Below are positions 5,337 to 26,325 of a stretch of 64,000 nt of DNA, piece after piece. This stretch comes from TPA_inf: Saccharomyces (taxonomy: Eukaryota). A program made the translations under genes and the position numbers. Positions within the stretch are counted from its first letter, which is position 1; every line of letters begins with the position of its first letter. The notes below the pieces were generated by a model. It saw nothing but the letters and a program-made list of their open reading frames with translations. It searched no databases and was not told where the DNA came from. The stretch covers positions 352,001 through 416,000 of the forward strand of contig BK006946.2 in assembly GCA_000146045.2 (NCBI GenBank), given 5' to 3'.

Positions 5337-5358
5337 TACCACCCATAATGTAATAGAT

Positions 5359-8300
5359 CTAATGAATCCATTTGTTTGTTAATAGTTTGAATGTTTTTAT
5401 CGGAAGAGGTTTGGTCATTACGTCTGCAATATTCTTTTTGGTTTCGATATAGCATACGTGCAGATGATTTCCTGATACTTCATCTCTCAGTCTCATTGCT
5501 TTAGTACCAAAAAATCTGTTTCTAAATTTCTCTTCATTATTGGATATAATTATACTGATTGTAGATTTACTGTCGGTTAGTAATCCTTTGGTAATTGGTT
5601 TCTTGTCGAGTTCTTGTATCAGGTAACTTAGATTATTTAATAATGGGACAGATTCACTTATTGCGTGTATTTCTGCTTCCGTAGTTGAAGTACATGTTAA
5701 TGAAGCCTTGGTGGACTTTCCTCCAATTACTTTTCCATTAAGTAAATATATGTTGCCAATTTGTGATTTATAATACGGTTGGTTACCATACGATGCATCG
5801 CTTATAACAACTAATTTATTTGTTGGCTTAACAGGTTTGCTTTTGTGCCATATTAATTGCTTATCTCTCGTATTCCATATGAACTGTATCAATTCATATG
5901 TCATATCTAACACTTGCTTGGACGGAAATAGTATATGTTGTGCAAGTGTGTTGATGTAGTATAATAGGTCAAATCTAAATTTATATCCAACATATGATGC
6001 TAGACCTATCAGCTTTTGCATTTCATGTACCTTCATTTTGTAATCATCTTCTTCTAGCTCTAGTTCTTGCTGGTCTATATATAGACCTGGTTGACCTGGA
6101 GCGCTAAGTTTCCTTCCTTTTGGGTTCAAAGGTACGTTTAGTTTGGGTATTTTTTCAGTTAATGAGTTTTCCATACCCAATTTCATGTATTTACCTCTTT
6201 GGTATTTGATTTCCAAGCCAAGAATGTCATATTGAATTTCCTCATCACTTTCGCCTAGATTTATAATCTTGGTGTCGTATTGCATCTTAAGCTTGTCTAT
6301 AATTCTTTTGTTTGAATTTAGATTTTTGCTAAACAGTACCATATCATCTACGAATAAACAAATTGTCACTTGACTGTTTTCAAATACGCATGACCATCCA
6401 CGAACTTCTTCCATACCACACTGTTTTATCAGGTATGATTTGATAGTTTCGTACCAGTTCGCTCCACTTTGTTTCAATCCATAAAGTGATTTCTTCAAAC
6501 GTATCAACTTATCATTCATTCCTAAATGTGGTGGAGGTCTTATGTATAATTCTTCTTTGATGTCTGCATACAAATATGCCGAAGATATGTCTAATTGTGT
6601 AATATAGTAGTTATTGTCTAATGCAAGTGACAGGGATGTCATTAATGCATAGTGATGTACGGTATTGGATTGCATGCCTGAGTCGTAAGTGTCAGGATGC
6701 TGAATATCACCTCTTGCAACAAATCTAGCTTTATGAGTACCGTCACGTTTCCTGTTGAAGATAAACATTGAATTTATTACTCTTTTAGGGTCTATTTCTT
6801 TTCTGTCATAATATTTGTCAGTGTCCCAAGTTTTCATCTTCAACAGTTGATTGACTTCTTTGTGGTATGCCTCGATATATTTTTCTTTTTCTTTAATATC
6901 TTTATTATAGGTGATTGCCTCATCGTATCGTAAGGTTGTTCGTATTGGTTTGATTGATTTTACTGCTTTTACAGCTGCAATCAGGTGGATTCGTTTCTTC
7001 GATCTCGGAGGTTCTAAACTACGCATATTCTTAGTATTCCATGTGTCTCGTGATACCTTAATTTCAGTTTCATTATCTTCTAATGATCTTTTCTTACTGT
7101 TGATAGTAGTATAGGCATTAGAGTCACCAATACCACCCAAACTGGAATTAGTTTGACGAGAATTGATCGGTGGAAGTTCTTTAAAGGAGTCTGATAATTC
7201 GGTAGGAGGTTCTGGAGGCAGATCGGGAAGTGGAAGATCAGCAATTATAGATTCCTCTGTATTCTCCTTAGGACAGGTATCTGACGTTTTGATAGGAACG
7301 ACGTGGTGTAGTGAATTACTTTCTGATGAGGAAGTATCGATCGAAGGTGAACGGTGTATGATCCTTTTCTCAGTCTCCTGTTCGCTTGTCTGCGGAACAG
7401 TTTTATTATTGGTACCACCCGTACTGGATATTGGTACGTTTGTATGATTAGTCTCATTGTCACTGTACGAGTCTGAGTGTCTGAAATCTTTAGATTTACT
7501 GGCGTGCGACGACTCATGTGTGTTAGATTGGGACATGGGAGCAAGTAAAGGAACATCTAATCTATGCATACCACCCGAACCGGTACTCTCGATATCGGAA
7601 ATTTGGGGGGTGCTAGATCTCTTCTTAGATGGAAGAATATTAGATTCAGATATGTTGGGGTCAACTTCTCTGGGTGCGCGAATATTGGTTTTGGAAACAC
7701 GTTTCGAATCTTCAGTATGAGTTGACGGAGGTGTGGAATCGGTTGGACTCACAGCTTTTGAAAGGACATTTCTCAGTTGCTCAGGATGTAGTTCAATGTC
7801 AGATTGGAAGTCATGGTCAGATTCTATGTTAAGATCATTGGATTGTTGGATCTCATTTGACGCAATGAACGAATGATATGAAGCAGTTAAACGGTTTAAG
7901 TCTTCATCGAAAGTGAGTGCGTCGTAATTGAATTGATCTAATCTGGATTCCTTGCCCTGAAGAATAACATAGTTAGTTGTATCTACTGTCTTCTTTAAGG
8001 ACGGAAGATAGATGATATATCCATAAGAGTTTCGAGACGGATGTAGAGCGTAGCCTGGGATGCCACGAGGATGTATTTTGGAGTTAGGGTTGTGATCATT
8101 GACGATAACAGGTTGACCGAAAGGTAACAAAGTACTGATATCAAGTCCTGCCAAGCCAGCATGTTGTCTTGCAGATTTTTTGCTTTTAGGTGAAGCTAGT
8201 GAATTTCTCACAATAGTAGAAAATTCGATTGCAGAGAACCATAAATGGTTCGGTAAACCACTACATTGCAGTTGAGTACGGCAGTCATCTAATAAGGTAC

Positions 8301-9078
8301 GGTTTAGCCGTTCAGCGACTCCATGTGCTCGGGAATCCGCTGTGGTTGTATAGCATGGAGTTATACCATTTTTTTCAAGGAATTTATGGAGAGTTCTGTT
8401 AGTATACTCAGAACCACGGTCCATTTGTATAACTAAGACACTGGCCTGAAACTGGTTTTTAATAAAAGCTAGTATCGTAGTAAAAACATCGAGGATAGAG
8501 TCCTCGCGACGGTCGTGTAATGGATAAACCCAACGGAATTTTGTTGTCTCATCAGTAAATGAGATGAAATAGGATGGTGCACTTTTTGGTAGGTTGTGAA
8601 CTGGACCAAATATGTCAGTATGTAGGTATTGAAAGGGTTCGTATGAATTTTGGTATTTTAGTCGTGAACCTTTGATATGTCTGTGTTTGGTGCTTTTGCC
8701 GATTAAACAATCAGGACATTGATAGTCAATAGCACTAGACCAGTCGACATCTGATTCGTTAAAATACGTGATGGTGTTATTTTTAAGTGAGTATCGAATT
8801 GTCTGTGCATTGGCATGTGCAAGCATTCGATGAATGAAAGGATAAGGATATTTGCGTGTACTTTCACTTGTATGGACATTATTGATGGTGGGTACGGAGA
8901 TATTTGATGGAAGCAAGTACTTTTTAGATACCCAGTAAAAGTCTCCATATTTTACGATAGGTGCAAGTACAGTGCCGTCAGATCGTTCTAAGACGTTTTT
9001 GGTAAAGCATGCTGTGATATCTACTGCAGCCAATTCATTCAAACTGAGTAAGTCATAGGCTATGTTAGGAGTGTGCAA
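5359..9078 (-). CDS. TYB: Ty1 TYB (Pol: protease, integrase, reverse transcriptase, RNase H); the ORF shown runs from its first Met
   Basis: The 1239-aa ORF carries integrase (HTDIFGP...DRGSEY) and reverse-transcriptase (YVDDM) motifs. It is expressed as a Gag-Pol fusion after a +1 frameshift at the CTTAGGC heptamer, so the true Pol frame opens upstream to about 9320. Confidence 0.95.
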
Positions 9079-9304
9079 TACCTTTATTGATGTTTTGGTG
9101 TTGTCCTGGAAGTGAAATTGTAGGTCACCAATAGCGTTAATTGGTATATTTCTTTTTTGAGCATCAACTACGTTTATGTCAGGATTAGATGATGCTGAGT
9201 GTATGTGATGAGCAGATCTTATAAGGGTTCGTGATGCTCCTGAATCAAGAAGGAGGTGTCCAGGGAGTTTATCATCAGAATGATTAGTGTGATTTACCGT
9301 AGAT

Positions 9305-10627
9305 TCAGTAAGTTCCTGGCCTAAGGTGAAGGTCGTGTGTATTCTTCAATTGAATCGGTTCAGTAGTCGATCCTCTTATGAGATCGTTATCAGGGCCGGG
9401 AGAGTTATTAAATGTGGATACGTTATGAGCCCTGGCTGTTCTTGATTGCGAATTATTTGGTTTTTGGGAATTCCGAGTTATGGATTTGGGTTTGGTTGTA
9501 TTCGTATAGGTGCGAGAGTCTTTCTTCTCATCACTCGGACTTCTCCTATGAGTAGATTTATTACGTTTTGATTCCTGTTGTTCTTCATACATAGAATGTA
9601 TGTCTGAAAACAGATCAGCAACTGTCATATGTATACATCGATGACGTGCGTAGCGTAAAAATTTGTACTCGCCAGATAGACCTCTCATAATGAATTGGCA
9701 TGCTACCTTGTTATTGATAGGAATACCATTGTTGTTTAGTCTGTCAAGAATGTTTGTGACTTCTGCTTCAAATGCATCTGCAGGTGTACTTCCATTATAA
9801 TGCAAAGTTGCTAGGGTCGTAATGTCATTTACCTCTTGAGTATCAGACTGCATTTTGTTAATGCTTTTGGAAAGAATTTTCATGATATCTGTATAATCAA
9901 CAGATAAGATGTCTTTAACCCAGGGGGGTAAGAATTGAGATGGAGCAAATAGTTGAAAGGTGTGACATAAGAAGGTGAGTTCGTCATCAGTCATCTGACG
10001 TACGGCTTTTCTTGTTGCTGTCGGAATAATATCACCGAGATTCGAATTTTGTAAAAATTTAATGTATATTTTAACCCAATTGAGAAAGTCATTAGGTGAG
10101 GTTAAGATTGGCGGTGGTCTGACATGTTGATTAGTGGATGTCATATTAGACTTTGCTGAGGATGAATCAGGAAATGAATTACCTGACTCAGGTGACGGGG
10201 TGTTCAAATGTGTTCCAACATATTGTGGATATTGTGTAAACTGTGATTGTGCCCCAGGTGGAGCGTACATAGGTGACATTTGATAAGGTGGATACGGCAT
10301 CAAGGATGGGTGCCCGTATACTGGCCAGCCAGAAATATTGGCTTGTTGGGTATTCATCATGCGCTGCTGTGGGTACGGCCCATTTTGTGGCAATGGTACT
10401 TGAGCAGCTTGAGGAGAGGCATGATGATGGTTCTCTGGAACAGCAGATGAGAGAGGTGTTGTTGGCTGTTGAGAATTAGCCTGAGTGGAAACCTTCTCAC
10501 ATTCTTCTGTTTTGGAAGCTGAAATGTCTAACGGATCTTGAGTTGTTTGGACTTCTTTAGAAGTAACCGAAGCACAGGCGCTACCATGAGAAATGGGGGA
10601 ATGTTGAGATAATTGTTGGGATTCCAT
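9305..10627 (-). CDS. TYA: Ty1 TYA (Gag), 440 aa, divergent Ty1-prime-like variant
   Basis: The protein starts [26 protein letters not shown], and its ATG lies inside the 5' LTR. It differs at many positions from the canonical Ty1 Gag found in the second element. Confidence 0.95.
9319..9325 (-). promoter_or_regulatory. Ty1 programmed +1 ribosomal frameshift heptamer CUU-AGG-C
   Basis: The plus strand reads gcctaag, the reverse complement of CTTAGGC, located 12 nt upstream of the TYA stop within the TYA/TYB overlap. Confidence 0.9.
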
Positions 10628-10918
10628 TGTTGATAAAGGCTATAATATTAGGTATACAGAATATACTAGAAGTTCTCCTCAAGGATATAGGAATCCTCAA
10701 AATGGAATCTATATTTCTACATACTAATATTACGATTATTCCTCATTCCGTTTTATATGTTTCATTATCCTATTACATTATCAATCCTTGCACTTCAGCT
10801 TCCTCTAACTTCGATGACAGCTTCTCATAACTTATGTCATCATCTTAACACCGTATATGATAATATATTGATAATATAACTATTAGTTGATAGACGATAG
10901 TGGATTTTTATTCCAACA
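10587..10918 (-). repeat. Ty1 5' LTR (delta), 332 bp; contains the TYA start codon
   Basis: Identical to the LTR at 5005-5336. Confidence 0.95.
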
Positions 10919-11063
10919 TCATTTTCAATGAAGCTGTGACCTTGGCATTCGCACCGCTTGACACTACAGGACGAATAAATTCCATGTTCGGGTGGTGGCT
11001 AGAGGTACATATGCGGTAAATGTACTGTATAGCCCAGCATGTTTTTCTTAACAATCCAAGTTT

Positions 11064-11135
11064 GCCATCTTAGTATAGTGGTTAGTACACATCGTTGTGG
11101 CCGATGAAACCCTGGTTCGATTCTAGGAGATGGCA
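11064..11135 (+). tRNA. tH(GUG): tRNA-His (anticodon GTG)
   Basis: The sequence gccatcttagtatagtggttagtacacatcgttgtggccgatgaaaccctggttcgattctaggagatggca is followed by a T-run terminator. It lies 145 bp from the Ty1 LTR. Confidence 0.9.
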
Positions 11136-11363
11136 TTTTCTTTTTTTTTCAAAGAAAAGAAAAAGGGAAGGCAACAAACGACATGAATTATTGTCTTTTT
11201 CAAAAGGATGTAATTATCGCAGCAGGTCTATGAAGGGTCCCTTTTCTCTTTTTTATCACTTGTTCCATCTATAATTTTATACTCAAAAATTTAACAGGTT
11301 AATTACACTAAATGCATTACAAATTTGTATTTGATTCTATATATAGTTTCGTTATATAATAAC

Positions 11364-14300
11364 TCAGGTCTGCTCTGCAGCGTGGTTTACGATAAACACG
11401 TATGTACCACTGTCTGCATCATAGCTTTCGAACTTAGAATTTGGATTTTTCTTTAAGCGTTCGATATGCCTTTTAACCAGTTGATGATTTGGATCCTTTA
11501 TAGGTTTTCTGGTAGATTTGTCTACAGGATAACAGTTAAAGCAGGTAATCCTGGCCCGAACATTAATGCCCTCCCCTCTCTTCGGTCTGTTTGGTAAGTT
11601 CGCATATATTATACAGGTTTTTGGTTCAAAAGTAATGATTACGCCCCCTAATGAGGTCAAAGGAATTCCAGCGAGGTCAACAGGTTCAAGAAATTCAATT
11701 TTACCATAACTTTTATGACCCACAACTAAATGAGGAACTTTGCGCAGTTGCAAGAGAGAATAAGAGGATAATGTGTCCAGGGATGGTGAGATATAGTAGT
11801 TCTCATTAATGAAGGAGGCATCTTTTTCCGCAACGTCCGCAAAAACAGCCTTTTTATCATCTTCTGAATATTCTTGCTTCTGTAAATCGGCGACATTTTC
11901 TTTATTTTCTTCGTCCATATTCCGGGAATGATGTTTCGTTGCGCTATCTTCCCCATCGTTCTTTGAGGACAAAACCATTCTTTCCCCCCCATTAGCAGTT
12001 TCTTTTTCATCCATCTTTGGCTTTCCCAAGATCGTTTCTTGTTCTTCACTTTTACTTTTAAAATTCATATCGTTGTTCTGTGATCCGTTATTCTTTTCCT
12101 CGGATGCGATCAACATTTTCCTGTTATTAATTAGATTCTTGAATGACCTTTTATCGGGATTGAATAATAACTCAGAAGCTTTTAATATGCTTTCGTCCAA
12201 ATTTTCCTCCTGCTGGTTAGAAATCGCAATCTGATTATTCTTTTTATCAATGGAAATCGACAACTTTGGATCAACCTTGATCTGGGCCTTATCCATGACG
12301 GAATTATTAGTCTTGAGCTTGGCTGTAAATAAAGTTTTAGGAATCATTTTGTATGCGTTCGTCAAACTGGCTTTTTTGCGTTCATCGGCTTTGATCTTTG
12401 TAGCGCTTGGTTGAATTGGATAGGAAACCGTGTTGGTGACAGTTGCTTTCGAAAAAAGCTCATTAGTACCGTAGGGATTGTTATTCTGAATTTGTAATCG
12501 TTGTTGCTGCTGCTGTTGTTGGAGCGCATTTTGTGATTGTGCCATTGACTGGGAAGGTTGGGAAAATAACCCTCCGCCCGAAGTGTTCGTACTAGTGTTA
12601 TTCTGAAATAAGCCTCCAGCATTAGTAGATTGAGAGGTGTTATTACTACCAAACAGGCCCGTTGAACCGTTGGAATTGTTTAGAGACGAGTTGTTATTGT
12701 TTCCAAATAGTCCTCCAGCACTTGTAGAAGCTCCCGCACCAACTGGTTTATTACCAAATAAACCAGTAGAATTGGTGGTGGCCGCCGTGTTAGATGCATT
12801 ATTGGACCCAAATATTCCACCCGAAGAGGCGTTTGGAGCCGTGGAATTAGTACCTCCGAAAAGGGATCCTGTAGCAGGTTTGCTACCAAATAATCCGCCG
12901 CTAGTTGAGGCAGGATTGTTTTGATTTGCAACTTGATTGTTTCCAAATAATCCGCCTCCAACAGTGTTTGATGGTTTTGAACCAAACAGGCCACCCGAAG
13001 CAGGTTGCTGTTTATTTTGGAACAAACCTCCTGATTGCTGCTGCAAATTATTTCCACTTATACCGTTACTTTGATTTGTTGTGCTGTTAGAGAATAAGCT
13101 TGTATTTCCAAAACCAGTTGGTTTCGCTCCAAAAAGACTATTATTCTGTTGTGGTTGTTGTAACCCATTTTGGCCAAATGGCTGATTATTATTTTGATTG
13201 GTCTGGCCAAACAATCCACCAGGTTGGGACTGCGACTGGTTGTTTTGTTGTCCGAATAATCCCCCGGTTGATTGCTGTTGTTGGTTATTTTGCCCAAATA
13301 TAGAATTATTTTGGGCATTACCAGACGCAAAAGTGGATGCTCCCTGCTGTTGTCCAAACAGTCCTCCTGCAGGTTTGCTTCCAAATAATCCGCCTTGTTG
13401 CTGTGGCTGGCCAAATGCGTTTGAGGAGTTTTGTTGTCCAAATAATCCGGATTGGTTCTGGCTTTGGTTATTCTGACCGAACAATCCTCCAGCGTTGGAA
13501 TTTTGTTGCTGGCCAAATAACCCTCCTCCACTTTGCTGCTGATTGGTTTGCCCAAATAAGCCACCAGTGGTACCAGTGGGGTTGGTATTCATTCCGAATG
13601 CTTTTGAACCAGCAGATTGTCCAAATAGTCCACCAGAAGCAGGTTTAGCTCCAAAAAGAGCACCAGTGCCTTGCTGTTGGCCGAAAGCGCCACCATTTGC
13701 GTTAGCGTTTGATTGACCAAATATACCACCACTACCTTGTTGTGTTTGTTGTTGGGGAAAGGCACCACGATTCACCTGACCAAAGGCTCCCCCGTTACTG
13801 ACATTATTCGCCCCAAATGAATTTTGCTGTTGACCAAATAATCCTCCGTTTGTATTTGAGTTCTGCTGGCCGAAAAGGCCTGTATTATTAGTGCCGTTTG
13901 TTGGGTTGTTAGTTGTATTACCAAACAATCCCCCGGAAGTGGCAGGTTTATTTGCTCCAAATGCAGAATTTCCTGAGAGGTTAGTAGAGCTTCCAAACAA
14001 TCCTGTAGAGTTGGTCGCTCCAGAGCCAAAGCCACCACCACTTCCAGTTCCGGTTCCAAACATGCCTGTTGCTGGCTTTTGACCAAATAATCCTCCTGTT
14101 GTAGCAGAAGTAGTGGAGTTATTATTACCCATAATTCCAAATCCAGTATTGGTAGTTCCTTGAGGATTGTTAAAAGTAGTACCAGTGCCATTTTGACTGG
14201 TACCGAATTTTCTACCAGCTTGGTAATCTTGAAATCTCAATTCTTCAAAAGAAAAATTTCTGTATTCAGGCATACAGGTGATACTTTGGAAGACGTTGAT

Positions 14301-14705
14301 GACACCTGTGGTTGGATCCTTCTCTTCGAATGTAGTAAAAGGTTTAATGCTTGTACCTGCAGTAGAATTGGGCACAACAGAAGCGGAACCAGCAGAAAGT
14401 GCTGTGTTATTACCCATTCCACCGAAGATCGAGCCAGAGGCATTGTTGTTCGTCAATTGACTTTGACCAAAAGGAGTACCATTTGCTGTAGTCGAGCCTG
14501 ACATTCCGAAGGGAGAATTAGAAGTTTGGTTACCAAAGTTACCAAACGCAGGTGCTTGTGTTGTATTTGTTTGCTGACTGAGGCCGAAAGCAGAAGTGTT
14601 TGCTACTGGTTGTTGTTGTTGCTGTTGGCCACCAAAGGTTGATCCTGTTGAGCCAAATGGCTGTGTTGTTGCGCTGGGGAATGCGCCACGGCTAACTCCA
14701 AACAT
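11364..14705 (-). CDS. NUP116: NUP116, GLFG-repeat nucleoporin, 1113 aa
   Basis: There are dozens of GLFG/SLFG/FG repeats separated by N/Q/S/T-rich spacers. The C-terminus carries a Nup98-type domain (HKSYGKIEFLEPVDL...). The length matches NUP116. Confidence 0.93.
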   Translation of the reverse strand: MFGVSRGAFPSATTQPFGSTGSTFGGQQQQQQPVANTSAFGLSQQTNTTQAPAFGNFGNQTSNSPFGMSGSTTANGTPFGQSQLTNNNASGSIFGGMGNNTALSAGSASVVPNSTAGTSIKPFTTFEEKDPTTGVINVFQSITCMPEYRNFSFEELRFQDYQAGRKFGTSQNGTGTTFNNPQGTTNTGFGIMGNNNSTTSATTGGLFGQKPATGMFGTGTGSGGGFGSGATNSTGLFGSSTNLSGNSAFGANKPATSGGLFGNTTNNPTNGTNNTGLFGQQNSNTNGGLFGQQQNSFGANNVSNGGAFGQVNRGAFPQQQTQQGSGGIFGQSNANANGGAFGQQQGTGALFGAKPASGGLFGQSAGSKAFGMNTNPTGTTGGLFGQTNQQQSGGGLFGQQQNSNAGGLFGQNNQSQNQSGLFGQQNSSNAFGQPQQQGGLFGSKPAGGLFGQQQGASTFASGNAQNNSIFGQNNQQQQSTGGLFGQQNNQSQSQPGGLFGQTNQNNNQPFGQNGLQQPQQNNSLFGAKPTGFGNTSLFSNSTTNQSNGISGNNLQQQSGGLFQNKQQPASGGLFGSKPSNTVGGGLFGNNQVANQNNPASTSGGLFGSKPATGSLFGGTNSTAPNASSGGIFGSNNASNTAATTNSTGLFGNKPVGAGASTSAGGLFGNNNNSSLNNSNGSTGLFGSNNTSQSTNAGGLFQNNTSTNTSGGGLFSQPSQSMAQSQNALQQQQQQQRLQIQNNNPYGTNELFSKATVTNTVSYPIQPSATKIKADERKKASLTNAYKMIPKTLFTAKLKTNNSVMDKAQIKVDPKLSISIDKKNNQIAISNQQEENLDESILKASELLFNPDKRSFKNLINNRKMLIASEEKNNGSQNNDMNFKSKSEEQETILGKPKMDEKETANGGERMVLSSKNDGEDSATKHHSRNMDEENKENVADLQKQEYSEDDKKAVFADVAEKDASFINENYYISPSLDTLSSYSLLQLRKVPHLVVGHKSYGKIEFLEPVDLAGIPLTSLGGVIITFEPKTCIIYANLPNRPKRGEGINVRARITCFNCYPVDKSTRKPIKDPNHQLVKRHIERLKKNPNSKFESYDADSGTYVFIVNHAAEQT

Positions 14706-14980
14706 AATAATGTTTTAAAAAAGAAATCTTCGAAGCTGAATGGTGCCTCTCAGTTGCCGGGATCTCTATGCAATGCTGATAGTTTCCTTTGCGACCTTAT
14801 GACACTTTATTAACTCTAAGTATAATTTAGTTTTGTTCTTTTTCTAATGAGCATGGTAAGGAAAAATGCCGGGTAATGATAATCTGCAAAAGTGACAATA
14901 ATAAACTGACGCGTAACAAGATCAATGATATACTGGATTAAAATGCCATGAAAACGTGAACAGAAACTTTTATTGAGGTC

Positions 14981-15934: not shown

Positions 15935-16093
15935 CAATGTCATTGAAGGTAATAATCCAAACGTGCGTGTGGGCATCTATACATATAGGTTTATATATAT
16001 TGTGTAAATAAAGCTTGTAGAAAGAGCCTGGTTCGAGTGTTTGATTTTTTCTTCTTGGGCGTTATTATACAATATCTACTTCAAATTATTTAT

Positions 16094-18517: not shown

Positions 18518-18604
18518 TGACCTAGTTATGTTAGAACAGATTTAATACAGTACCTTTCTTCGCTAGGATCTATATGCGAATATATCACATATGTAAATTA
18601 TAAG

Positions 18605-18635
18605 CTCATCGCAAAACCAAAAAAAAAAAAATTTT
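18605..18635 (-). promoter_or_regulatory. PAC (GCGATGAG, seen here as ctcatcgc) and RRPE (AAAAATTTT) ribosome-biogenesis promoter motifs upstream of ERB1
   Basis: ctcatcgc sits at 18605-18612 and aaaaaatttt at 18626-18635, about 90-120 bp upstream of the ERB1 ATG. This is the classic arrangement for ribosome-biogenesis regulon genes. Confidence 0.7.
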
Positions 18636-20444
18636 CAATAATTTTTCACTAATCTTCAAAAACAAATGGGGTAACCCGTACAAGAGTTATTAAAACCCAA
18701 AATGACAAAATCGCGACAATTCAATCCTACTTAATTAGCAATAACATACTAGCGGTAGAGCTACTATCACATGTTGAACCTTGAATGCTCAATTCATTGT
18801 ACTCAATACTGCTATCAAAAGAAAAAAAATGTATTAATTATATTCTTGTCAAAATCAATTTTACACTATAAGAGGAAAATGTTCTTCAGTCCTAGTAACA
18901 TTAGTTTTCTCCCTTTGCTAGAGACTTTACATAATATCCTAGAAGGTAAAATTCGATAATACAGCAGTAAAGTCGTATATTGGTAGCAATCCTTGGTGAC
19001 GCTGACTTTTTTTTTTTGTAATTTTATTGTTTAGTTCATGATAAAAAACTTCAAATCACTTTTAATCTGGTAGACAGAGAAAACAAATCGAAACGAAAAT
19101 AGAGAACTACGAATAAAAAAATATAAGTGGAGAAGATCGTCACTACGCATTAAACAATATTGATCGCTCAATGCCAGTACTGCGCGTAAAAGTTTAGTAA
19201 CTTAACGATTTAGGCACAATTTGAGAAAAATTTCGCCCTGCAGTAAGTATGTTATTCAGTACGATATAAAGCTGAGGTTTTATGCTGGCAACGTTCAGAT
19301 TTTTTAGGTTATCAGCAATGTTAAAATATTAAATAGGATACTTTTATTGTTTGAGACCACCCTCAATGCCAGATATGTTAAACGCTTTTTTCTGGAGTGA
19401 GGTATCATAGAAAAAGGCTCGAGTACATCAAGCACTTAAAGGTTCAACACTCTACTGTTACTTCTTTAAGCTAAGCTATTCATACATAATAGTCCATCAA
19501 AGTGGCTCAAATTGCGCATACAGTGTAAAAATGCGTTCAGGGAATAACGATGTCAAGCAGCGTGTGAAAATTGGACACGTTGAATAATAAACTTCCTGGA
19601 AACCGTCGCGCGCCACTGCTGTCAGAAAATAGTAGACTACTTAATTTTCAATTCATATTTAGCCTGCTTTTTGATCTATGAAATCGCCCACTCTAAATCA
19701 GCGGTGTTTTTGCACGGTTTGTAATTTTAACTTCATTATATGTATTATTCGGTGACTTCACTAAAAAAGAAGGATCTATGCAATATTCTTATCTTCTATT
19801 TTTTTTCTTTTCGATTTTTGAAGTTAAACCTTCGTAATGAACAGATTCGAACAGTATACAGCTGATGACAATTACATGTTAAACTTTCATTGATGATAAT
19901 GGCACGCACTCCACCTGTTAAAGAGGCAGAACGAAGAACCTTTGCTTATAACATAGGTCAGTGTATACTGGATAATAGTATCGAATAACCAGCATAATAT
20001 TTTCTCTGGAAATACCTTTAAGGGGTTTTTAGAAGAAAAACAAATCCTAGTGCAACTTGCAAGTCATCAAAAATAATCTATCTTATCTCTATATATATAT
20101 TTGTGTATTTTATATTTTATGACAAAGCTAGAAATATAAAATCAGATACCGCAATAGAAGATATTTCAAATAATAATACCAATCTCATAGCTCAAAACAG
20201 GCACTAAGGGAATACTGAAGAAAGTAATGTCTAGGAGTTAGTATAGCTTGAAGTTGCCATCGGTGTCATTTAGGTAGATCTATCTAGATTACGCGCAGCC
20301 CTCAGAAAAGCAAGTGATTTCCGAAGTTTCAACCTACCCAGACTATTCACATAAGGTTAATTTATGATTGAACAGTTCAAATAAATCTGCGCCATTCATG
20401 AAGATGATTCGATACCGCAATATGCTGCTAAAGTGCTAAAAAAA

Positions 20445-20518
20445 TGATTTCGCCCAGGATCGAACTGGGGACGTTCTGCGTGTTAAGCAGATGCCATAAC
20501 CGACTAGACCACGAAACC
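20445..20518 (-). tRNA. tV(AAC): tRNA-Val (anticodon AAC)
   Basis: The reverse complement reads ggtttcgtggtctagtcggttatggcatctgcttaacacgcagaacgtccccagttcgatcctgggcgaaatca. An A-run on the plus strand, which is the terminator T-run on the minus strand, sits at 20437-20443. Confidence 0.9.
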
Positions 20519-20626
20519 AGGTTTTATTGAAAAATTGCATCTAAAATAACCTATACTAATAAATCTTCTAATAAATCTTCTAACTCTTCGCTGTTCTATG
20601 TGATATCGTTGATAGTTAGGTTTTCG

Positions 20627-20696
20627 TGTTGAAATAATCAATTACATTTATTGACTGGTTTAATATTAATATATTATCATATACAGTGTAAGAAGG
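20627..20696 (+). repeat. Segment 1 of 3 of an old solo delta LTR in plus orientation, interrupted by the Ty1-4 insertion
   Basis: The stretch tgttgaaataatcaattacatttattgactggtttaatattaatatattatcatatacagtgtaagaagg aligns with the delta 5' end (TGTTGGAATAGAAATCAACTATCATCTACTAACTAGTATTTACATTACTAGTATATTATCATATACGGTGTTAGAAGA). Confidence 0.75.
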
Positions 20697-21034
20697 TGAG
20701 ATATATGTGGGTAATTAGATAATTGTTGGGATTCCATTGTTGATAAAGGCTATAATATTAGGTATACAGAATATACTAGAAGTTCTCCTCGAGGATATAG
20801 GAATCCTCAAAATGGAATCTATATTTCTACATACTAATATTACGATTATTCCTCATTCCGTTTTATATGTTTATATTCATTGATCCTATTACATTATCAA
20901 TCCTTGCGTTTCAGCTTCCTCTAACATCGATGACAGCTTCTCATAACTTATGTCATCATCTTAACACCGTATATGATAATATATTGATAATATAACTATT
21001 AGTTGATAGACGATAGTGGATTTTTATTCCAACA
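20697..21034 (-). repeat. Ty1 3' LTR (delta), 338 bp
   Basis: Identical to the copy at 26285-26622. Confidence 0.95.
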
Positions 21035-21056
21035 TACCACCCATAATGTAATAGAT

Positions 21057-24000
21057 CTAATGAATCCATTTGTTTGTTAATAGTTTGAATGTTTTTATCG
21101 GAAGAGGTTTGGTCATTACGTCTGCAATATTCTTTTTGGTTTCGATATAGCATACGTGCAGATGATTTCCTGATACTTCATCTCTTAGTCTCATTGCTTT
21201 AGTACCAAAAAATCTGTTTCTAAATTTCTCTTCATTATTGGATATAATTATACTGATTGTAGATTTACTGTCGGTTAGTAATCCTTTAGTAATTGGTTTC
21301 TTGTTAAGTTCTTGCACAAGGTGACTGAGGTTATTTAATAATGGGACAGATTCACTTATCGCGTGTATTTCTGCTTCCGTAGTTGAAGTACATGTTAATG
21401 AAGCCTTGGTGGACTTTCCTCCAATTACTTTTCCATTAAGTAAATATATGTTGCCAATTTGTGATTTATAATACGGTTGGTTACCATACGATGCATCGCT
21501 TATAACAACTAATTTATTTGTTGGCTTAACAGGTTTGCTTTTGTGCCATATTAATTGCTTATCTCTCGTATTCCATATGAACTGTATCAATTCATATGTC
21601 ATATCTAACACTTGCTTGGACGGAAATAGTATATGTTGTGCAAGTGTGTTGATGTAGTATAATAGGTCAAATCTAAATTTATATCCAACATATGATGCTA
21701 GACCTATCAGCTTTTGCATTTCATGTACCTTCATTTTGTAATCATCTTCTTCTAGCTCTAGTTCTTGCTGGTCTATATATAGACCTGGTTGACCTGGAGC
21801 GCTAAGTTTCCTTCCTTTTGGGTTCAAAGGTACGTTTAGTTTGGGTATTTTTTCAGTTAATGAGTTTTCCATACCTAATTTCATGTATTTACCTCTTTGA
21901 TATTTGATTTCTAAGCCAAGTATGTCGTACTGAATTTCGTTATCACTTTCACCCAGATTTATTATCTTTGTATCGTATTGTTTCTTGAGTGTTGTTATGA
22001 TTTTCTTATTTGCATTTAAGTCTTTGCTGAACAATATCATATCATCAACGAATAAGCAAATTGTTACTTGACTATTCTTAAATACGCATGACCATCCACG
22101 AACTTCTTCCATACCACACTGTTTTATCAGGTATGATTTGATAGTTTCGTACCAGTTCGCTCCACTTTGTTTCAATCCATAAAGTGATTTCTTCAAACGT
22201 ATTAACTTATCATTCATTCCTAAATGTGGTGGAGGTCTTATGTATAGTTCTTCTTTGATGTCTGCATACAAATATGCCGAAGATATGTCTAATTGTGTAA
22301 TATAGTAGTTATTGTCTAATGCAAGTGACAGGGATGTCATTAATGCATAGTGATGTACGGTATTGGATTGCATGCCTGGGTCGTAAGTGTCAGGATGTTG
22401 AATATCACCTCTTGCAACAAATCTAGCTTTATGAGTACCGTCACGTTTCCTGTTAAAGATAAACATTGAATTTATTACTCTTTTGGGGTCTATTTCTTTT
22501 CTGTCATAATATCTGTCAGTGTCCCAAGTTTTCATCTTCAACAGTTGATTGACTTCTTTGTGGTATGCCTGGATATATTTTTCTTTTTCTTTAATATCTT
22601 TATTATAGGTGATTGCCTCATCGTATCGTAAGGTTGTCCGTATTGGTTTGATTGATTTTACTGCTTTTACAGCTGCAATCAGGTGAATTCGTTTCTTCGA
22701 TCTCGGAGGTTCTAAACTACGCATATTCTTAGTATTCCATGTGTCTCGTGATACCTTAATTTCAGTTTCATTATCTTCTAATGATCTTTTCTTACTGTTG
22801 ATAGTAGTATAGGCATTAGAGTCACCAATACCACCCAAACTGGAATTAGTTTGACGAGAATTGATCGGTGGGAGTTCTTTAAATGGGTCAGGGAATTCGG
22901 TAGGAGATTCTGGAGGTAGATCAGGGAGTGGGAGATCAGCGATGATAGATTCCTCGGTATTCTGTTCAGAAACAGTAGTTGGCGTTTTGATAGGAACAAT
23001 ATTGTGCGATGAATTATTTTCCGGTGGAGAAGCATCGATTGAAGGTGAACGGTGTATAATCCTTTTCTCAGTCTCTTGGTCACTTATCTGCGGAACAGTT
23101 TTGTTGTTGGTACCACCCGTACTGGATATTGGTACGTTTGTATGATTAGTCTCATTTTCACTGTACGAGTCTGAGTGTCTGAAATCTTTAGATTTACTGG
23201 CGTGCGACGACTCATGTGTGTTAGATTGGGACATGGGAGCAAGTAAAGGAACATTTAATTTATGCATACCACCCGAACCGGTACTCTCGATATTGGAAAT
23301 TTGGGGGGTGCTAGATCTCTTCTTTGATGGAAGAATATTAGATTCAGATATGTTGGGGTCAACTTCTCTGGGTGCGCGAATATTGGTTTTAGAAACACGT
23401 TTCGAATCTTCAGTATGAGTTGACGGAGGTGTGGAATCGGTTGGACTCACAGCTTTTGAAAGGACATTTCTCGGTTGCTCAGGATGTAGTTCGATGTCAG
23501 ATTGGAAGTCATGGTCAGATTCTATGTTAAGATCATCGGATTGTTGGATCTCATTTGACGCAATGAACGATTGATATGAAGCAGTTAAACGGTTTAAGTC
23601 TTCATCGAAAGTGAGTGCGTCGTAATTGAATTGATCTAATCTGGATTCCTTGCCCTGAAGAATAACATAGTTAGTTGTATCTACTGTCTTCTTTAAGGAT
23701 GGAAGATAGATGATATATCCATAAGAGTTTCGAGACGGATGTAGAGCGTAGCCTGGGATGCCACGAGGATGTATTTTGGAGTTAGGGTTGTGATCATTGA
23801 CGATAACAGGTTGACCGAAAGGTAACAAAGTACTGATATCAAGTCCTGCCAAGCCAGCATGTTGTCTTGCAGATTTTTTGCTTTTAGGTGAAGCTAGTGA
23901 ATTTCTCACAATAGTAGAAAATTCGATTGCAGAGAACCATAAATGGTTCGGTAAACCACTACATTGCAGTTGAGTACGGCAGTCATCTAATAAGGTACGG

Positions 24001-24776
24001 TTGAGCCGTTCAGCGACTCCATGTGCTCGGGAATCCGCTGTGGTTGTATAGCATGGAGTTATACCATTTTTTTCAAGGAATTTATGGAGAGTTCTGTTAG
24101 TATACTCAGAACCACGGTCCATTTGTATAACCAAGACACTGGCCTGAAACTGGTTCTTAATAAAAGCTAGTATCGTAGTAAAAACATCGAGGATAGAGTC
24201 CTCGCGACGGTCGTGTAATGGATAAACCCAACGGAATTTTGTTGTCTCATCAGTAAATGAGATGAAATAGGATGGTGCACTTTTTGGTAGGTTGTGAACT
24301 GGACCAAATATGTCAGTATGTAGGTATTGAAAGGGTTCGTATGAATTTTGGTATTTTAGTCGTGAACCTTTGATATGTCTGTGTTTGGTGCTTTTGCCGA
24401 TTAAACAATCAGGACATTGATAGTCAATAGCACTAGACCAGTCGACATCTGATTCGTTAAAATACGTGATGGTGTTATTTTTAAGTGAGTATCGAATTGT
24501 CTGTGCATTGGCATGCGCAAGCATTCGATGAATGAAAGGATAAGGATATTTGCGTGTACTTTCACTTGTATGGACATTATTGATGGTGGGTACGGAGATA
24601 TTTGATGGAAGCAAGTACTTTTTAGATACCCAGTAAAAGTCTCCATATTTTACGATAGGTGCAAGTACAGTGCCGTCAGACCGTTCTAAGACGTTTTTGG
24701 TAAAGCATGCTGTGATATCTACTGCAGCCAATTCATTCAAACTGAGTAAGTCATAGGCTATGTTAGGAGTGTGCAA
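21057..24776 (-). CDS. TYB: Ty1 TYB (Pol); the ORF shown runs from its first Met
   Basis: The ORF is 1239 aa. Its first ~400 aa are identical to Ty1-3 TYB, with scattered differences in the integrase C-terminus and in RT/RNase H. Confidence 0.95.
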
Positions 24777-25002
24777 TACCTTTATTGATGTTTTGGTGTT
24801 GTCCTGGAAGTGAAATTGTAGGTCACCAATAGCGTTAATTGGTATATTTCTTTTTTGAGCATCAACTACGTTTATGTCAGGATTAGATGATGCTGAGTGT
24901 ATGTGATGAGCAGATCTTATAAGGGTTCGTGATGCTCCTGAATCGAGAAGGAGGTGTCCAGGGAGTTCATCATCAGAATGATTAGTATGATTTACTGTAG
25001 AT

Positions 25003-26325
25003 TCAGTAAGTTTCTGGCCTAAGATGAAGGTCGTGCTTATTGTTCAATTGAATCGGTTCAGTAGTTGATTTACTGATGGAATCGTTGTCCGTGCTGGGAG
25101 AGTTATTAGATGTGGATACATTGTGAGCCCTGGCTGTTTTCGATTTCGAATTATTTGTTTTTTGAGGATTCCGAGCTATAACTTTGGGTTTGGTTGTATT
25201 CGTATAGCTGCGAGAATCATTCTTCTCATCACTCGGATTTCTCCTGTAATTAGGTTTGCTGTTTCTCGATCCCTGTTGTTCTTCATAAATAGCATGGATA
25301 TCTAAGAACAGTTCAGCGACTGTCATATTTAGATGTCGATGACGTGTGTAGCGTAAAAATTTATATTCGCCAGATAGACCTCTCATAATTAATTGGCATG
25401 CGACCTTGTTATTGATATGAATGCCATTATTGTTCAGTCTGTCGATAATGTTTGTGACTTTTGTTTCAAATGCATCTGCAGGTGTACTGCCATTATATTG
25501 CAAATTTGCCAGGGTCACAATGTCGTTTGCCTCTTGGGTATCAGATTGCATTTTTTCAATACTTTTGGAAAGAATTTTCATGATATCCGTATAATCAACG
25601 GATAGGATGTCTTTGACCCAGGTAGGTAGGAATTGAGAGGGAGCAAATATTTGAAAAGTGTTATACAAGAAGGTGAGTTCATCATCAGTGATCTGACGTA
25701 CGGGTTTTCCGTTTACTGTCGGAATAATACCACCGAGATTCGAGTTTTGTAAAAATTTGATGTATGTTTTAACCCAATTTGGAAAATCATTAGGTGAGGT
25801 TAACATTGGTGGTGGTCTGACATATTTTTTAGTGGATGTCATATCAGAGTCCGCTGAGGATGAATCAGTAAATGTATTACCTGACTCAGGTGATGGAGTG
25901 CTCAGAGGCGTTCCAACTGATGATGGATACTGCGGAAACTGTGATTGTGGCCCAGGTGGAAAGTACATAGGCGACATTTGATAAGGTGTATACGGAATCA
26001 TAGATGGGTGTCCGTAAAATGACCAACCAGATGGATTGGCTTGGTTTTGGGTCATCATGCACTGCTGTGGGTACGGCCCATTCTGTGGAGGTGGTACTGA
26101 AGCAGGTTGAGGAGAGGCATGATGGGGGTTCTCTGGAACAGCTGATGAAGCAGGTGTTGTTGTCTGTTGAGAGTTAGCCTTAGTGGAAGCCTTATCATAT
26201 TCTTGAATTTTGGAAGCTGAAACGTCTAACGGATCTTGATTTGTGTGGACTTCCTTAGAAGTAACCGAAGCACAGGCGCTACCATGAGATATATGTGGGT
26301 AATTAGATAATTGTTGGGATTCCAT
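25003..26325 (-). CDS. TYA: Ty1 TYA (Gag), 440 aa, canonical Ty1 type
   Basis: The protein starts [39 protein letters not shown] and ends ...[10 protein letters not shown]. It matches the Ty1-H3-like Gag I remember. Confidence 0.95.
25017..25023 (-). promoter_or_regulatory. Ty1 +1 frameshift heptamer CUU-AGG-C
   Basis: The plus strand reads gcctaag, 12 nt upstream of the TYA stop. Confidence 0.9.

What the first reader, a model, noticed from the sequence alone, without database searches (positions are those of the whole stretch)
5359..26325. The two Ty1 copies are mosaics: near-identical Pol but strongly divergent Gag, with one copy carrying a Ty1-prime-like gag
The first ~400 aa of TYB are identical between the two elements. 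The Gag proteins differ at a large fraction of positions. The first copy reads [49 protein letters not shown]... The second reads [49 protein letters not shown]... Differences continue through the whole 440 aa, including the C-terminal ...RPGTY in the first versus ...RPETY in the second. The LTR U5 and leader also differ (tgagaaatgggggaatgttgag in the first versus tgagatatatgtgggtaattag in the second). Clusters of substitutions also occur in the integrase C-terminus and in RT. This pattern indicates inter-element recombination during reverse transcription, with a breakpoint near the gag-pol junction. Gag is the determinant of copy-number control (the p22 restriction factor), so the coexistence of two Gag types in one 20-kb interval is functionally interesting.
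Basis: partly seen in the sequence, partly recalled or inferred. Interest (0 to 1): 0.5.

Follow-up and report, generated by a model that had tools for sequence, protein, structure and literature searches.

The report
Ty1-prime and canonical Ty1 neighbours
The window holds two well-known yeast retrotransposons from the reference genome, one of the Ty1-prime subfamily and one canonical Ty1; their patchwork differences are real but have already been described and explained in published work.

Summary
The window is S. cerevisiae S288C chromosome XIII. Two full-length Ty1 elements lie on the minus strand: YMRCTy1-3 at 5005-10918 and YMRCTy1-4 at 20697-26622.

- **Divergence:** Gag is 77.5% identical (99 of 440 residues differ). 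Pol differs at 43 of 1320 residues. Nucleotide differences fall in sharp blocks: U5 plus gag (~14%), the integrase C-terminus (~22%), RT (~20%) and a short RNase H tract. The backbone is about 99% identical. Permutation gives p<=1e-4.
- **Breakpoint:** The 3' edge of the gag block lies at the +1 frameshift site and gag stop codon.
- **Subfamilies:** Copy 1 has Ty1-prime Gag. It is 99.1% identical to YBLWTy1-1 Gag and has the diagnostic V266/T270/F312. Copy 2 has canonical Gag (A266/V270/L312).
- **Sources of the patches:** The RT and RNase H patches of copy 2 are Ty2-derived. Its gag and integrase patches are closest to another Ty1 lineage.
- **History:** Each copy has identical LTRs and its own 5-bp target duplication, upstream of a tRNA gene. 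The two copies did not recombine with each other. They are independent insertions from two subfamilies whose mosaic relationship is older.

Kim 1998, Jordan & McDonald 1998/1999, Bleykasten-Grosshans 2013, Czaja 2020 and the DRT2/p18 papers of 2024-2025 already describe all of this. Verdict: already known, low interest.

The parts
5005..10918 (-). Copy 1: full-length Ty1-prime element YMRCTy1-3 (YMR045C/YMR046C), 5914 bp
   Evidence: LTR ends TGTTGGAATA...TCTCA and the PBS were located. Gag equals NP_013760.1 (Ty1-MR1). The reconstructed +1 frameshift Gag-Pol equals NP_013759.1.
10587..10918 (-). Copy 1 5' LTR (332 bp); the gag ATG lies inside it at element nt 292
   Evidence: It is 100% identical to the 3' LTR.
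5005..5336 (-). Copy 1 3' LTR (332 bp)
   Evidence: Zero differences from the 5' LTR. The polypurine tract GGGTGGTA lies just upstream.
10577..10586 (-). Copy 1 primer-binding site TGGTAGCGCC
   Evidence: Exact pattern match next to the 5' LTR.
9305..10627 (-). Copy 1 gag (TYA), 440 aa, Ty1-prime type
   Evidence: 99.1% identical to Ty1-BL Gag (YBLWTy1-1). Residues V266/T270/F312. In the Gag tree it groups with Ty1-BL, a YJM789 Gag and the truncated Ty1-DR2 at 100% bootstrap.
9319..9325 (-). Copy 1 +1 frameshift heptamer CTTAGGC
   Evidence: Found at element nt 1594. The fusion protein built across it matches the RefSeq protein exactly.
5359..9321 (-). Copy 1 pol (TYB) in the +1 frame, from the frameshift site to the stop codon
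   Evidence: ORF list and fusion reconstruction. Pfam rve and RVT_2 are recorded for homologues.
20697..26622 (-). Copy 2: full-length canonical Ty1 element YMRCTy1-4 (YMR050C/YMR051C), 5926 bp
   Evidence: Element ends located. The Gag sequence is shared identically by six S288C elements. Gag-Pol equals NP_013765.1 (Ty1-MR2).
26285..26622 (-). Copy 2 5' LTR (338 bp)
   Evidence: It is 100% identical to the 3' LTR.
20697..21034 (-). Copy 2 3' LTR (338 bp)
   Evidence: Zero differences from the 5' LTR.
25003..26325 (-). Copy 2 gag (TYA), 440 aa, canonical type
   Evidence: 99.3-99.8% identical to five other Gags of the canonical cluster, four of them S288C elements (OR, DR3, ML1, BR). Residues A266/V270/L312.
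25017..25023 (-). Copy 2 +1 frameshift heptamer CTTAGGC
   Evidence: Found at element nt 1600.
9315..10606 (-). Divergent block A in copy 1 (U5 end plus gag, element nt 313-1604), about 14% different from copy 2 (counterpart 25013-26304)
   Evidence: Difference positions. Synonymous divergence 0.32. Maximum chi-square boundary at nt 1604.
7174..7408 (-). Divergent block B (integrase C-terminus, element nt 3511-3745); counterpart in copy 2 at 22872-23106
   Evidence: K2P distance 0.218 between the copies. Copy 2 is closest to the unnamed element L003 (39 of 45 sites).
21876..22079 (-). Ty2-derived tract in the RT of copy 2 (copy-2 nt 4544-4747); counterpart in copy 1 at 6178-6381
   Evidence: Copy 2 equals Ty2 at 38 of 38 sites that differ between the copies. 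It equals the S288C Ty2-C and Ty2-DR1 proteins at 10 of 10 residues. There are 2 differences in 182 bp against L001.
21290..21335 (-). Short Ty2-identical tract in the RNase H of copy 2 (copy-1 coordinates 5282-5327)
   Evidence: Zero differences from Ty2 over 46 bp that hold 8 of the differences between the copies. It matches the 'short hybrid' class described in PMC4022208.
5663..6177 (-). 515-bp tract (element nt 4742-5256) with no difference between the two copies
   Evidence: Difference positions. Three other canonical-Gag copies (L004, L008, L009) differ from both by about 11% here and are partly Ty2-like; the YER160C copy (L011) is identical to both.
5000..5004 (.). Target-site duplication TCATT of copy 1 (second copy at 10919-10923)
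   Evidence: Flanking bases read directly.
20692..20696 (.). Target-site duplication GAAGG of copy 2 (second copy at 26623-26627)
   Evidence: Flanking bases read directly.
11064..11135 (+). tRNA-His gene; copy 1 is inserted 145 bp upstream of it
   Evidence: ARAGORN and Rfam at 61 bits.
20445..20518 (-). tRNA-Val gene; copy 2 is inserted 178 bp upstream of it
   Evidence: ARAGORN and a local Rfam scan at 53 bits.

Best explanation
These are two independent, recent insertions of LTR retrotransposons from two known Ty1 subfamilies. Each landed in the usual Ty1 target zone upstream of a tRNA gene.

Copy 1 (YMRCTy1-3) is a Ty1-prime element. Copy 2 (YMRCTy1-4) is a canonical Ty1. The two share an almost identical pol backbone. 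They differ in blocks because the canonical lineage is an old recombinant:
- Its U5 end plus gag, and a patch in the integrase C-terminus, come from a different Ty1 lineage. The literature identifies that donor as S. paradoxus-type Ty1 acquired by horizontal transfer.
- Short tracts in RT and RNase H come from Ty2.

The most likely mechanism is template switching between two different Ty RNAs packaged in one virus-like particle. The U5+gag block needs one intermolecular minus-strand strong-stop transfer at R and one internal switch at the gag-pol junction. Retrotransposition of the recombinant would follow.

**Shown here:** the blocks, their boundaries, the subfamily assignments, the Ty2 origin of the RT and RNase H tracts, and the independence of the two insertions.

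**Inferred or taken from the literature:** the S. paradoxus donor, the RNA-level mechanism, and the functional consequence. That consequence is that the p22/p18 restriction factor made by canonical gag acts on A266/V270/L312 Gag but not on V266/T270/F312 Ty1-prime Gag.
For: **Identity**
- Gag and the reconstructed Gag-Pol are exact matches to S288C Ty1-MR1 and Ty1-MR2 on a 924,431-bp contig.

**Independent, recent insertions**
- LTR pairs are 100% identical within each copy. Each copy has its own target duplication, TCATT and GAAGG.
- tRNA genes lie 145 bp and 178 bp away.

**Block structure**
- Sharp blocks with permutation p<=1e-4; boundary at nt 1604.
- Synonymous divergence: gag 0.32, integrase C-terminus 0.60, RT 1.67, RNase H 0.50, backbone 0.02-0.045.

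**Subfamily assignment**
- Copy 1 Gag is 99.1% identical to Ty1-BL Gag and carries V266/T270/F312. Copy 2 carries A266/V270/L312.
- These are the diagnostic residues given in PMC12530519. YBLWTy1-1 is the Ty1-prime reference in PMC10951436.
- The Gag tree supports both groupings at 100% bootstrap for the Ty1-prime clade.

**Incongruence between genes**
- In gag, copy 2 to L003 is 0.113 while copy 2 to copy 1 is 0.159.
- In the backbone, copy 2 to copy 1 is 0.009 while each to L003 is 0.136-0.138.

**Ty2 tracts**
- 38 of 38 sites and 10 of 10 residues in RT. A 46-bp identical tract in RNase H.

**Reassortment of patches among elements with the same Gag**
- Seen in fetched loci L004, L008, L009 and L011, and in the S288C proteins Ty1-H and Ty1-JR2.

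**Literature**
- PMC7055915 (Fig 3A and Table 3): S288c has 3 full-length and 1 truncated element with Ty1-prime gag. This fits the named Ty1-prime-type Gags recovered: MR1, BL and the truncated DR2 in one 90% cluster, plus the within-gag recombinant NL1 in a separate cluster.
- PMC4022208: Ty1/2 hybrids arise by recombination during reverse transcription in heterozygous virus-like particles.
- PMC12530519 reports 78.9% Gag and 91.3% Gag-Pol identity between the subfamilies. Here the values are 77.5% and 92.0%.
Against: - The donor of the canonical gag and integrase patches could not be named. L003 is an unlabelled metagenomic contig, and no named S. paradoxus Ty1 was reachable with these tools.
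- The only Ty2 nucleotide reference (L001) is a metagenome scaffold whose 5' end is chimeric. I therefore used only its internal part and cross-checked it against the named S288C Ty2-C and Ty2-DR1 proteins.
- RNA-level template switching cannot be told apart from cDNA-mediated or DNA-level gene conversion followed by a round of transposition.
- The position of R within the LTR comes from memory of Ty1-H3 coordinates. I did not test it.
Confidence: 0.93

Rival explanations
1. Simple old divergence without recombination. On this view gag and the integrase C-terminus evolve faster, through relaxed constraint or an arms race with the p22 restriction factor, while pol is conserved.
For: Gag and the integrase C-terminus are the least constrained parts of Ty1 proteins. 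dN/dS in gag (0.39) is higher than in pol (0.04-0.22).
Against: Synonymous divergence differs 7- to 80-fold between adjacent segments, with abrupt edges. The RT patch is nearly identical to Ty2. The gag and pol groupings disagree. The patches reassort among elements that share the same Gag.
Confidence: 0.02
2. Local exchange. On this view the two neighbouring copies, 10 kb apart and in the same orientation, homogenised their pol by ectopic gene conversion at this locus and left gag unconverted.
For: The backbone is about 99% identical. There is a 515-bp tract with no difference at all.
Against: In the backbone, copy 1 is closer to the YER160C-locus element L011 (about 5 differences over nt 1701-3500) than to copy 2 (16). 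Copy 2 is closer to L004 (about 8). L011 shares the same 515-bp tract with zero differences. Both target duplications and both LTR pairs are intact. The same subfamily pattern is seen genome-wide and in other strains (PMC7055915).
Confidence: 0.04
3. The exchanges happened at the DNA level rather than by RNA template switching. Ty cDNA or another genomic copy would convert a chromosomal element, and the converted element would then transpose.
For: cDNA recombination with genomic Ty1 is a documented minor pathway (noted in PMC10951436). Many short Ty2 tracts of variable extent look like conversion tracts.
Against: The U5+gag block is carried on both LTRs. Its 5' edge (between nt 238 and 313) spans R, the obligatory strand-transfer site, so a reverse-transcription origin needs fewer steps (inference). 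The literature favours heterozygous virus-like particles (PMC4022208).
Confidence: 0.25

Closest known systems
Ty1-prime subfamily of Ty1 (reference element YBLWTy1-1; defined by Kim et al. 1998, as cited in PMC7055915)
   Same: Copy 1 Gag is 99.1% identical to YBLWTy1-1 Gag. It has V266/T270/F312 and a Ty1-type pol. It sits in the same 90% cluster as Ty1-BL and the truncated Ty1-DR2.
   Different: Nothing of substance. There are 4 amino-acid differences in Gag. I did not find a held paper that names YMRCTy1-3 as Ty1-prime, so the assignment rests on the sequence tests here.
Canonical Ty1 (Ty1c, Ty1-H3 type), a recombinant of Ty1-prime, S. paradoxus-type Ty1 and Ty2 (Czaja et al. 2020, PMC7055915, Fig 3A)
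   Same: Copy 2 has the canonical Gag shared identically by six S288C copies, with A266/V270/L312. Against Ty1-prime it is divergent in gag, the integrase C-terminus, 3' pol and the LTRs, as published.
   Different: Against the 'pure canonical' pattern, the Ty2-like part of 3' pol in copy 2 is reduced to two short tracts. The 515 bp between them is Ty1-prime type.
Ty1/2 hybrid elements (Jordan & McDonald 1998/1999; Bleykasten-Grosshans 2013, PMC4022208)
   Same: Copy 2 carries Ty2-identical tracts in RT (about 180 bp) and RNase H (46 bp). The RNase H tract lies in the last 300 nt of TYB, like the published 'short hybrids with a 60-bp Ty2 segment'.
   Different: Copy 2 lacks the long Ty2-type end of TYB and the Ty2-type U3 seen in long hybrids such as L008 from YJM789.
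Retroviral recombination by template switching between co-packaged genomes
   Same: The pattern is mosaic genomes with discrete breakpoints. One edge of the gag block lies at the R strand-transfer region.
   Different: This is only an analogy for the mechanism. Nothing here tests it directly.

Membership tests
Ty1 (Ty1/copia-type LTR retrotransposon, Pseudoviridae) | Direct LTRs of about 334 bp that begin TG and end CA, flanked by a 5-bp target-site duplication | tested here: met
   LTRs are 332 bp and 338 bp, running TGTTGGAATA...TCTCA. Target duplications are TCATT and GAAGG.
Ty1 (Ty1/copia-type LTR retrotransposon, Pseudoviridae) | Primer-binding site TGGTAGCGCC (initiator tRNA-Met) next to the 5' LTR, and a polypurine tract before the 3' LTR | tested here: met
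   Exact primer-binding sites at 10577-10586 and 26275-26284. GGGTGGTA precedes both 3' LTRs.
Ty1 (Ty1/copia-type LTR retrotransposon, Pseudoviridae) | gag (TYA) and pol (TYB, with integrase before reverse transcriptase) joined by a +1 frameshift at CUU AGG C | tested here: met
   The heptamer lies at element nt 1594 and 1600. The 1755-aa fusions equal the RefSeq Gag-Pol proteins. Pfam TYA, rve and RVT_2 are recorded.
Ty1 (Ty1/copia-type LTR retrotransposon, Pseudoviridae) | Integration upstream of RNA polymerase III genes | tested here: met
   Copy 1 lies 145 bp upstream of tRNA-His. Copy 2 lies 178 bp upstream of tRNA-Val.
Ty1-prime subfamily | Gag groups with YBLWTy1-1 rather than with canonical Ty1 | tested here: met
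   Copy 1 is 99.1% identical to Ty1-BL and 77.5% to canonical, with 100% bootstrap for the clade. Copy 2 does not meet this feature.
Ty1-prime subfamily | Dimer-1 residues V266/T270/F312 (PMC12530519) | tested here: met
   Copy 1 has V, T, F.
Canonical Ty1 (Ty1c) | Dimer-1 residues A266/V270/L312, with Met249 and Met259 as the p22 start codons | tested here: met
   Copy 2 has A, V, L. Both methionines are present, and they are also present in copy 1.
Canonical Ty1 (Ty1c) | gag derived from S. paradoxus-type Ty1 (Czaja 2020) | not testable with these tools
   No named S. paradoxus Ty1 was retrievable. The unnamed element L003 is closer to copy 2 than to copy 1 in gag (0.113 against 0.177) and in the integrase C-terminus (0.116 against 0.330).
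Ty1/2 hybrid | Ty2-derived segment in TYB | tested here: met
   Copy 2 has an RT tract with 2 differences in 182 bp against Ty2 and an RNase H tract with 0 differences in 46 bp. At the protein level it matches S288C Ty2-C at 10 of 10 and 3 of 3 residues. Copy 1 has none.
Ty1/2 hybrid | Ty2-derived LTR U3 (the long-hybrid type) | tested here: not met
   Both copies differ from the Ty2-type U3 of L001 (3' LTR) and L008 at about 24 sites in the first 115 bp of the LTR. The reference LTR comes from a metagenome scaffold, so this result carries moderate weight.

The most novel reading that the evidence does not exclude
YMRCTy1-4 may be a specific, more recent back-recombinant between the canonical and Ty1-prime lineages. 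Its Ty2-like 3' pol region is interrupted by a 515-bp tract identical to Ty1-prime, and the YER160C copy shares that tract.

If so, exchange between the two subfamilies would still be ongoing in the S288C lineage. S288C lacks DRT2, and canonical p22 cannot act on Ty1-prime Gag with V266/T270/F312. Co-resident subfamilies with different restriction specificities could then still swap pol segments while keeping gag incompatibility.
Probability: 0.3. Interest if true: 0.15.

Novelty: already known. Interest (0 to 1): 0.08.

Why it matters
Gag type decides which restriction factor controls a Ty1 element. Canonical Ty1 is held in check by its own p22/p18. Ty1-prime is restricted by the domesticated Drt2, which S288C lacks. 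The mosaic history, with horizontal transfer of gag and introgression of Ty2 tracts, explains how copy-number control arose.

These points are established in PMC7055915, PMC10951436 and PMC12530519. This window is simply a clean textbook example from the reference genome, and it adds no new biology.

Tried and rejected
- **Ty2 reference.** I used the metagenome scaffold L001 as a full Ty2 reference, then found that its 5' LTR and first ~80 Gag codons are canonical-Ty1 type. I therefore used only its internal part. I checked that part against the named S288C Ty2-C and Ty2-DR1 proteins.
- **Genomic Ty2 locus.** I looked for one through Ty2-OR2 Gag (P0079). No encoding contig was on record.
- **Kim et al. 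1998.** I tried to read it by DOI; it is not held. Literature searches for YMRCTy1-3 found no paper that explicitly calls it Ty1-prime.
- **Is the 'SNYPH...IQEYDK' N-terminus and U5 of copy 2 Ty2-derived?** Rejected. Bona fide Ty2 Gag starts MESQQLHQNPHSLHGSAY, and the SNYPH type is the common canonical S288C type.
- **Local gene conversion between the two copies.** Rejected.
- **Rate heterogeneity without recombination.** Rejected.
- **Not run.** The bacterial, phage and plasmid collections, structure prediction and RNA-model tools have no bearing on this finding.

Full report
**What is there**

The window contains two full-length LTR retrotransposons, both on the minus strand. Copy 1 lies at 5005-10918 (5914 bp, LTRs 332 bp). 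Copy 2 lies at 20697-26622 (5926 bp, LTRs 338 bp).

Each copy has the following features:
- LTRs running TGTTGGAATA...TCTCA
- the initiator-tRNA-Met primer-binding site TGGTAGCGCC
- a polypurine tract
- a 440-codon gag
- the CTTAGGC +1 frameshift heptamer
- a long pol frame

The two Gag proteins, and the two 1755-aa Gag-Pol fusions I built across the frameshift, are exact matches to S. cerevisiae S288C proteins on a 924,431-bp contig. They are Ty1-MR1 (NP_013760.1 and NP_013759.1) and Ty1-MR2 (NP_013765.1).

The window is therefore reference chromosome XIII. The elements are YMRCTy1-3 (YMR045C/046C) and YMRCTy1-4 (YMR050C/051C). The three ORFs between them are 1113, 317 and 807 aa long. From memory, those lengths fit NUP116, CSM3 and ERB1.

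**Checking the observation**

- The quoted Gag N-termini, the RPGTY and RPETY ends, and the quoted + strand strings at 5005 and 20697 are exact.
- Gag differs at 99 of 440 residues (77.5% identity).
- The mechanical pol ORF is identical over its first 401 residues. Measured from the true frameshift site, Pol differs at 43 of 1320 residues. Gag-Pol is 91.97% identical.

Two corrections apply.
- The quoted 'U5 and leader' bases are the reverse complement of the U5 end of the 3' LTR. In the 5' LTR the same bases are coding, because the gag ATG lies inside the LTR. They cause the SQHSP and SNYPH difference.
- The coordinates given omit the outer LTRs.

**Block structure**

A nucleotide alignment has 346 differing columns out of 5926. 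They are strongly clustered. Positions are copy-1 element coordinates.

| Region | Position | Divergence |
|---|---|---|
| LTR U3 | 109-156 | small cluster including a 6-bp indel |
| U5 end plus gag | 313-1604, thinning to 1672 | about 14% |
| Integrase C-terminus | 3511-3745 | about 22% (K2P) |
| RT | 4538-4741 | about 20% |
| RNase H | 5257-5329 | 10 differences in 73 bp |
| Backbone | remainder | 0.5-1% |
| 4742-5256 | 515 bp | no differences |

The variance of differences per 100-bp bin is 49. The permutation mean is 5.4 and the maximum is 11.4 in 10,000 permutations. The longest identical run is 515 bp, against a 99.9th percentile of 204 bp.

Maximum chi-square puts the 3' edge of the gag block at nt 1604. 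That is between the frameshift heptamer (1594-1600) and the gag stop (1612-1614).

Synonymous divergence is 0.32 in gag, 0.60 in the integrase patch, 1.67 in the RT patch and 0.50 in the RNase H patch. It is 0.02-0.045 in the backbone. Differences in protein constraint therefore cannot explain the pattern.

**Which copy is which**

Copy 1 Gag is 99.1% identical to Ty1-BL Gag. Ty1-BL is YBLWTy1-1, the element used as the Ty1-prime reference in PMC10951436 and PMC12530519. Copy 1 Gag shares a 90% cluster with Ty1-BL and the truncated Ty1-DR2.

Copy 2 Gag is identical in six S288C elements. It is 99.3-99.8% identical to five other Gags of the canonical cluster.

A neighbour-joining Gag tree rooted on Ty2 places copy 1 with Ty1-BL, a YJM789 Gag and Ty1-DR2 at 100% bootstrap. 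Copy 2 sits among the canonical Gags.

The three Dimer-1 residues that PMC12530519 shows to be fully diagnostic, and to set restriction specificity, are V266/T270/F312 in copy 1 (Ty1-prime). They are A266/V270/L312 in copy 2 (canonical).

The published subfamily identities are 78.9% for Gag and 91.3% for Gag-Pol. Mine are 77.5% and 92.0%.

PMC7055915 Table 3 counts three full-length and one truncated S288c element with Ty1-prime gag. This fits the named Gags I recovered:
- MR1 and BL, with the truncated DR2, in one 90% cluster.
- The within-gag recombinant NL1 in a separate cluster.

**Source of each block**

I fetched related elements:
- eight loci with exactly the copy 2 Gag from NCBI genome assemblies, six of which yielded full-length elements (L004-L009 and L011; L010 did not)
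- a Ty1-prime-type scaffold (L015)
- an unnamed Ty1 relative (L003)
- a S. mikatae element (L017)
- a Ty2 scaffold (L001)

L001 sits in the same 90% cluster as S288C Ty2-C, Ty2-DR1 and Ty2-OR2. Its 5' LTR and first ~80 Gag codons are canonical-Ty1 type, so I used only its interior.

Results:
- **Ty1-prime:** L015 matches copy 1 in every block. Copy 1 is therefore an ordinary Ty1-prime.
- **RT:** copy 2 equals Ty2 at 38 of 38 sites that differ between the copies. There are 2 differences in 182 bp. Copy 2 equals the named S288C Ty2-C and Ty2-DR1 proteins at 10 of 10 residues.
- **RNase H:** copy 2 is identical to Ty2 over 46 bp (5282-5327) that hold 8 of the differences. This corresponds to the 'short hybrid with a 60-bp Ty2 segment' class of PMC4022208.
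- **gag and integrase C-terminus:** copy 2 is closest to L003. In gag it is 0.113 from L003 and 0.159 from copy 1. In the integrase patch it is 0.116 from L003 and 0.218 from copy 1. In the backbone the two copies are 0.009 apart and both are about 0.137 from L003.

This disagreement between segments is what Czaja et al. 2020 report (PMC7055915, Fig 3A). They describe gag and part of pol of canonical Ty1 as coming from an S. paradoxus-type Ty1, and parts of the LTRs and 3' pol as coming from Ty2. In their account Ty1-prime is the resident S. cerevisiae lineage. I could not confirm the species of L003.

**The two copies did not recombine with each other**

Each copy has identical 5' and 3' LTRs and its own 5-bp target duplication, TCATT and GAAGG. 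Each sits in the Ty1 target window upstream of a tRNA gene. Copy 1 is 145 bp from tRNA-His. Copy 2 is 178 bp from tRNA-Val.

In the backbone, copy 1 is closer to the element at the YER160C locus (L011) than to copy 2. Copy 2 is closer to L004. L011 shares the 515-bp identical tract.

The patches also reassort freely among elements that share the same canonical Gag.
- L008 (YJM789) has a Ty1-prime-type RT patch but a long Ty2 tract from ~4900 into U3.
- L009 has a Ty2 tract at 4200-4700 and a mostly Ty1-prime-type integrase patch.
- Within S288C, Ty1-H has the Ty1-prime-type integrase patch (19 of 19 residues). Ty1-JR2 has the Ty1-prime-type RT patch (7 of 9).

So the mosaicism is a family-wide, recurrent process and not an event at this locus.

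**Mechanism**

The accepted explanation is recombination during reverse transcription in virus-like particles that package two different Ty RNAs (PMC4022208, citing Jordan & McDonald).

The anatomy here fits that explanation. The divergent 5' block is U5 plus gag, and both LTRs carry the same U5 type. Its 5' edge falls between nt 238 and 313. By my recollection of Ty1-H3 coordinates this spans R, the site of the obligatory minus-strand strong-stop transfer.

One intermolecular strong-stop transfer plus one internal switch at the gag-pol junction would therefore produce the block. This is inference. DNA-level or cDNA-mediated conversion followed by transposition would leave the same product.

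**Function**

Both Gags keep Met249 and Met259, the p22 start codons in canonical Ty1. 21 of the 107 residues of the minimal restriction fragment (249-355) differ, including the three specificity residues.

Published experiments show the following (PMC10951436, PMC12530519):
- p18 restricts only Gag with A266/V270/L312.
- Ty1-prime shows no self-encoded copy-number control.
- The Ty1-prime restriction factor DRT2 is absent from S288C.

The proximity of the two copies has no known functional role, because these proteins act in trans.

**Verdict**

The element pair is part of the reference yeast genome, and its subfamily structure, mosaic origin and functional consequences are all published. Novelty: already known. 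Interest: low.

Noticed in passing
protein clusters seen (not in the window): Ty1 and Ty2 protein fragments are filed in NCBI under bacteria. Examples are Streptococcus uberis WP_461249341.1, GAA5351190.1 and GAA5349144.1, Parabacteroides merdae MTT11453.1, and Eggerthella sinensis MCB7039452.1. They fall in the same 90% clusters as S288C Ty proteins, which almost certainly reflects yeast DNA contamination of bacterial assemblies.
   Followed up: no
L001:1-600; also L012 and L013: The metagenome scaffold L001 is Ty2 internally. Its 5' LTR and first ~80 Gag codons are canonical-Ty1 type. L012 and L013 join a Ty2 and a Ty1 head to tail. These are either assembly chimeras across shared repeats or natural hybrids, so they are unsafe as references for LTRs.
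   Followed up: partly
P0037 (Lachancea fermentati LAFE_0H08460g1_2): A Gag annotated in Lachancea fermentati is 64-69% identical to S. cerevisiae Ty1 Gag. That is closer than S. cerevisiae's own Ty2 Gag (46-51%). This is a possible horizontal transfer or contamination.
   Followed up: no
window 20445-20518 (-): The whole-window Rfam scan at gathering threshold did not report this tRNA-Val. ARAGORN found it, and a local Rfam scan found it at 53 bits. The speed filters appear to have caused a false negative.
   Followed up: yes
window 20658-20703, 26640-26696, 26733-27005 (-), 27075-27198 (+): Degenerate solo-LTR (delta) fragments, 75-86% identical to the LTRs, flank copy 2 on both sides. They are remnants of earlier insertions in the same tRNA-associated hotspot. 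An intron-containing tRNA lies at 27303-27408 (-) and another at 280-370 (+).
   Followed up: partly
window 5663-6177 and 21367-21881 (element nt 4742-5256): The two copies are identical over 515 bp here. Three other canonical-Gag copies (L004, L008, L009) differ from both by about 11% and are partly Ty2-like. YMRCTy1-4 and the YER160C copy (L011) therefore carry Ty1-prime-type sequence between two Ty2 tracts.
   Followed up: partly
S288C proteins Ty1-H (P0117) and Ty1-JR2 (P0108): Within S288C, Ty1-H combines canonical Gag with the Ty1-prime-type integrase C-terminal patch (19 of 19 residues). Ty1-JR2 combines canonical Gag with the Ty1-prime-type RT patch (7 of 9). The pol patches therefore segregate independently of Gag type.
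   Followed up: partly
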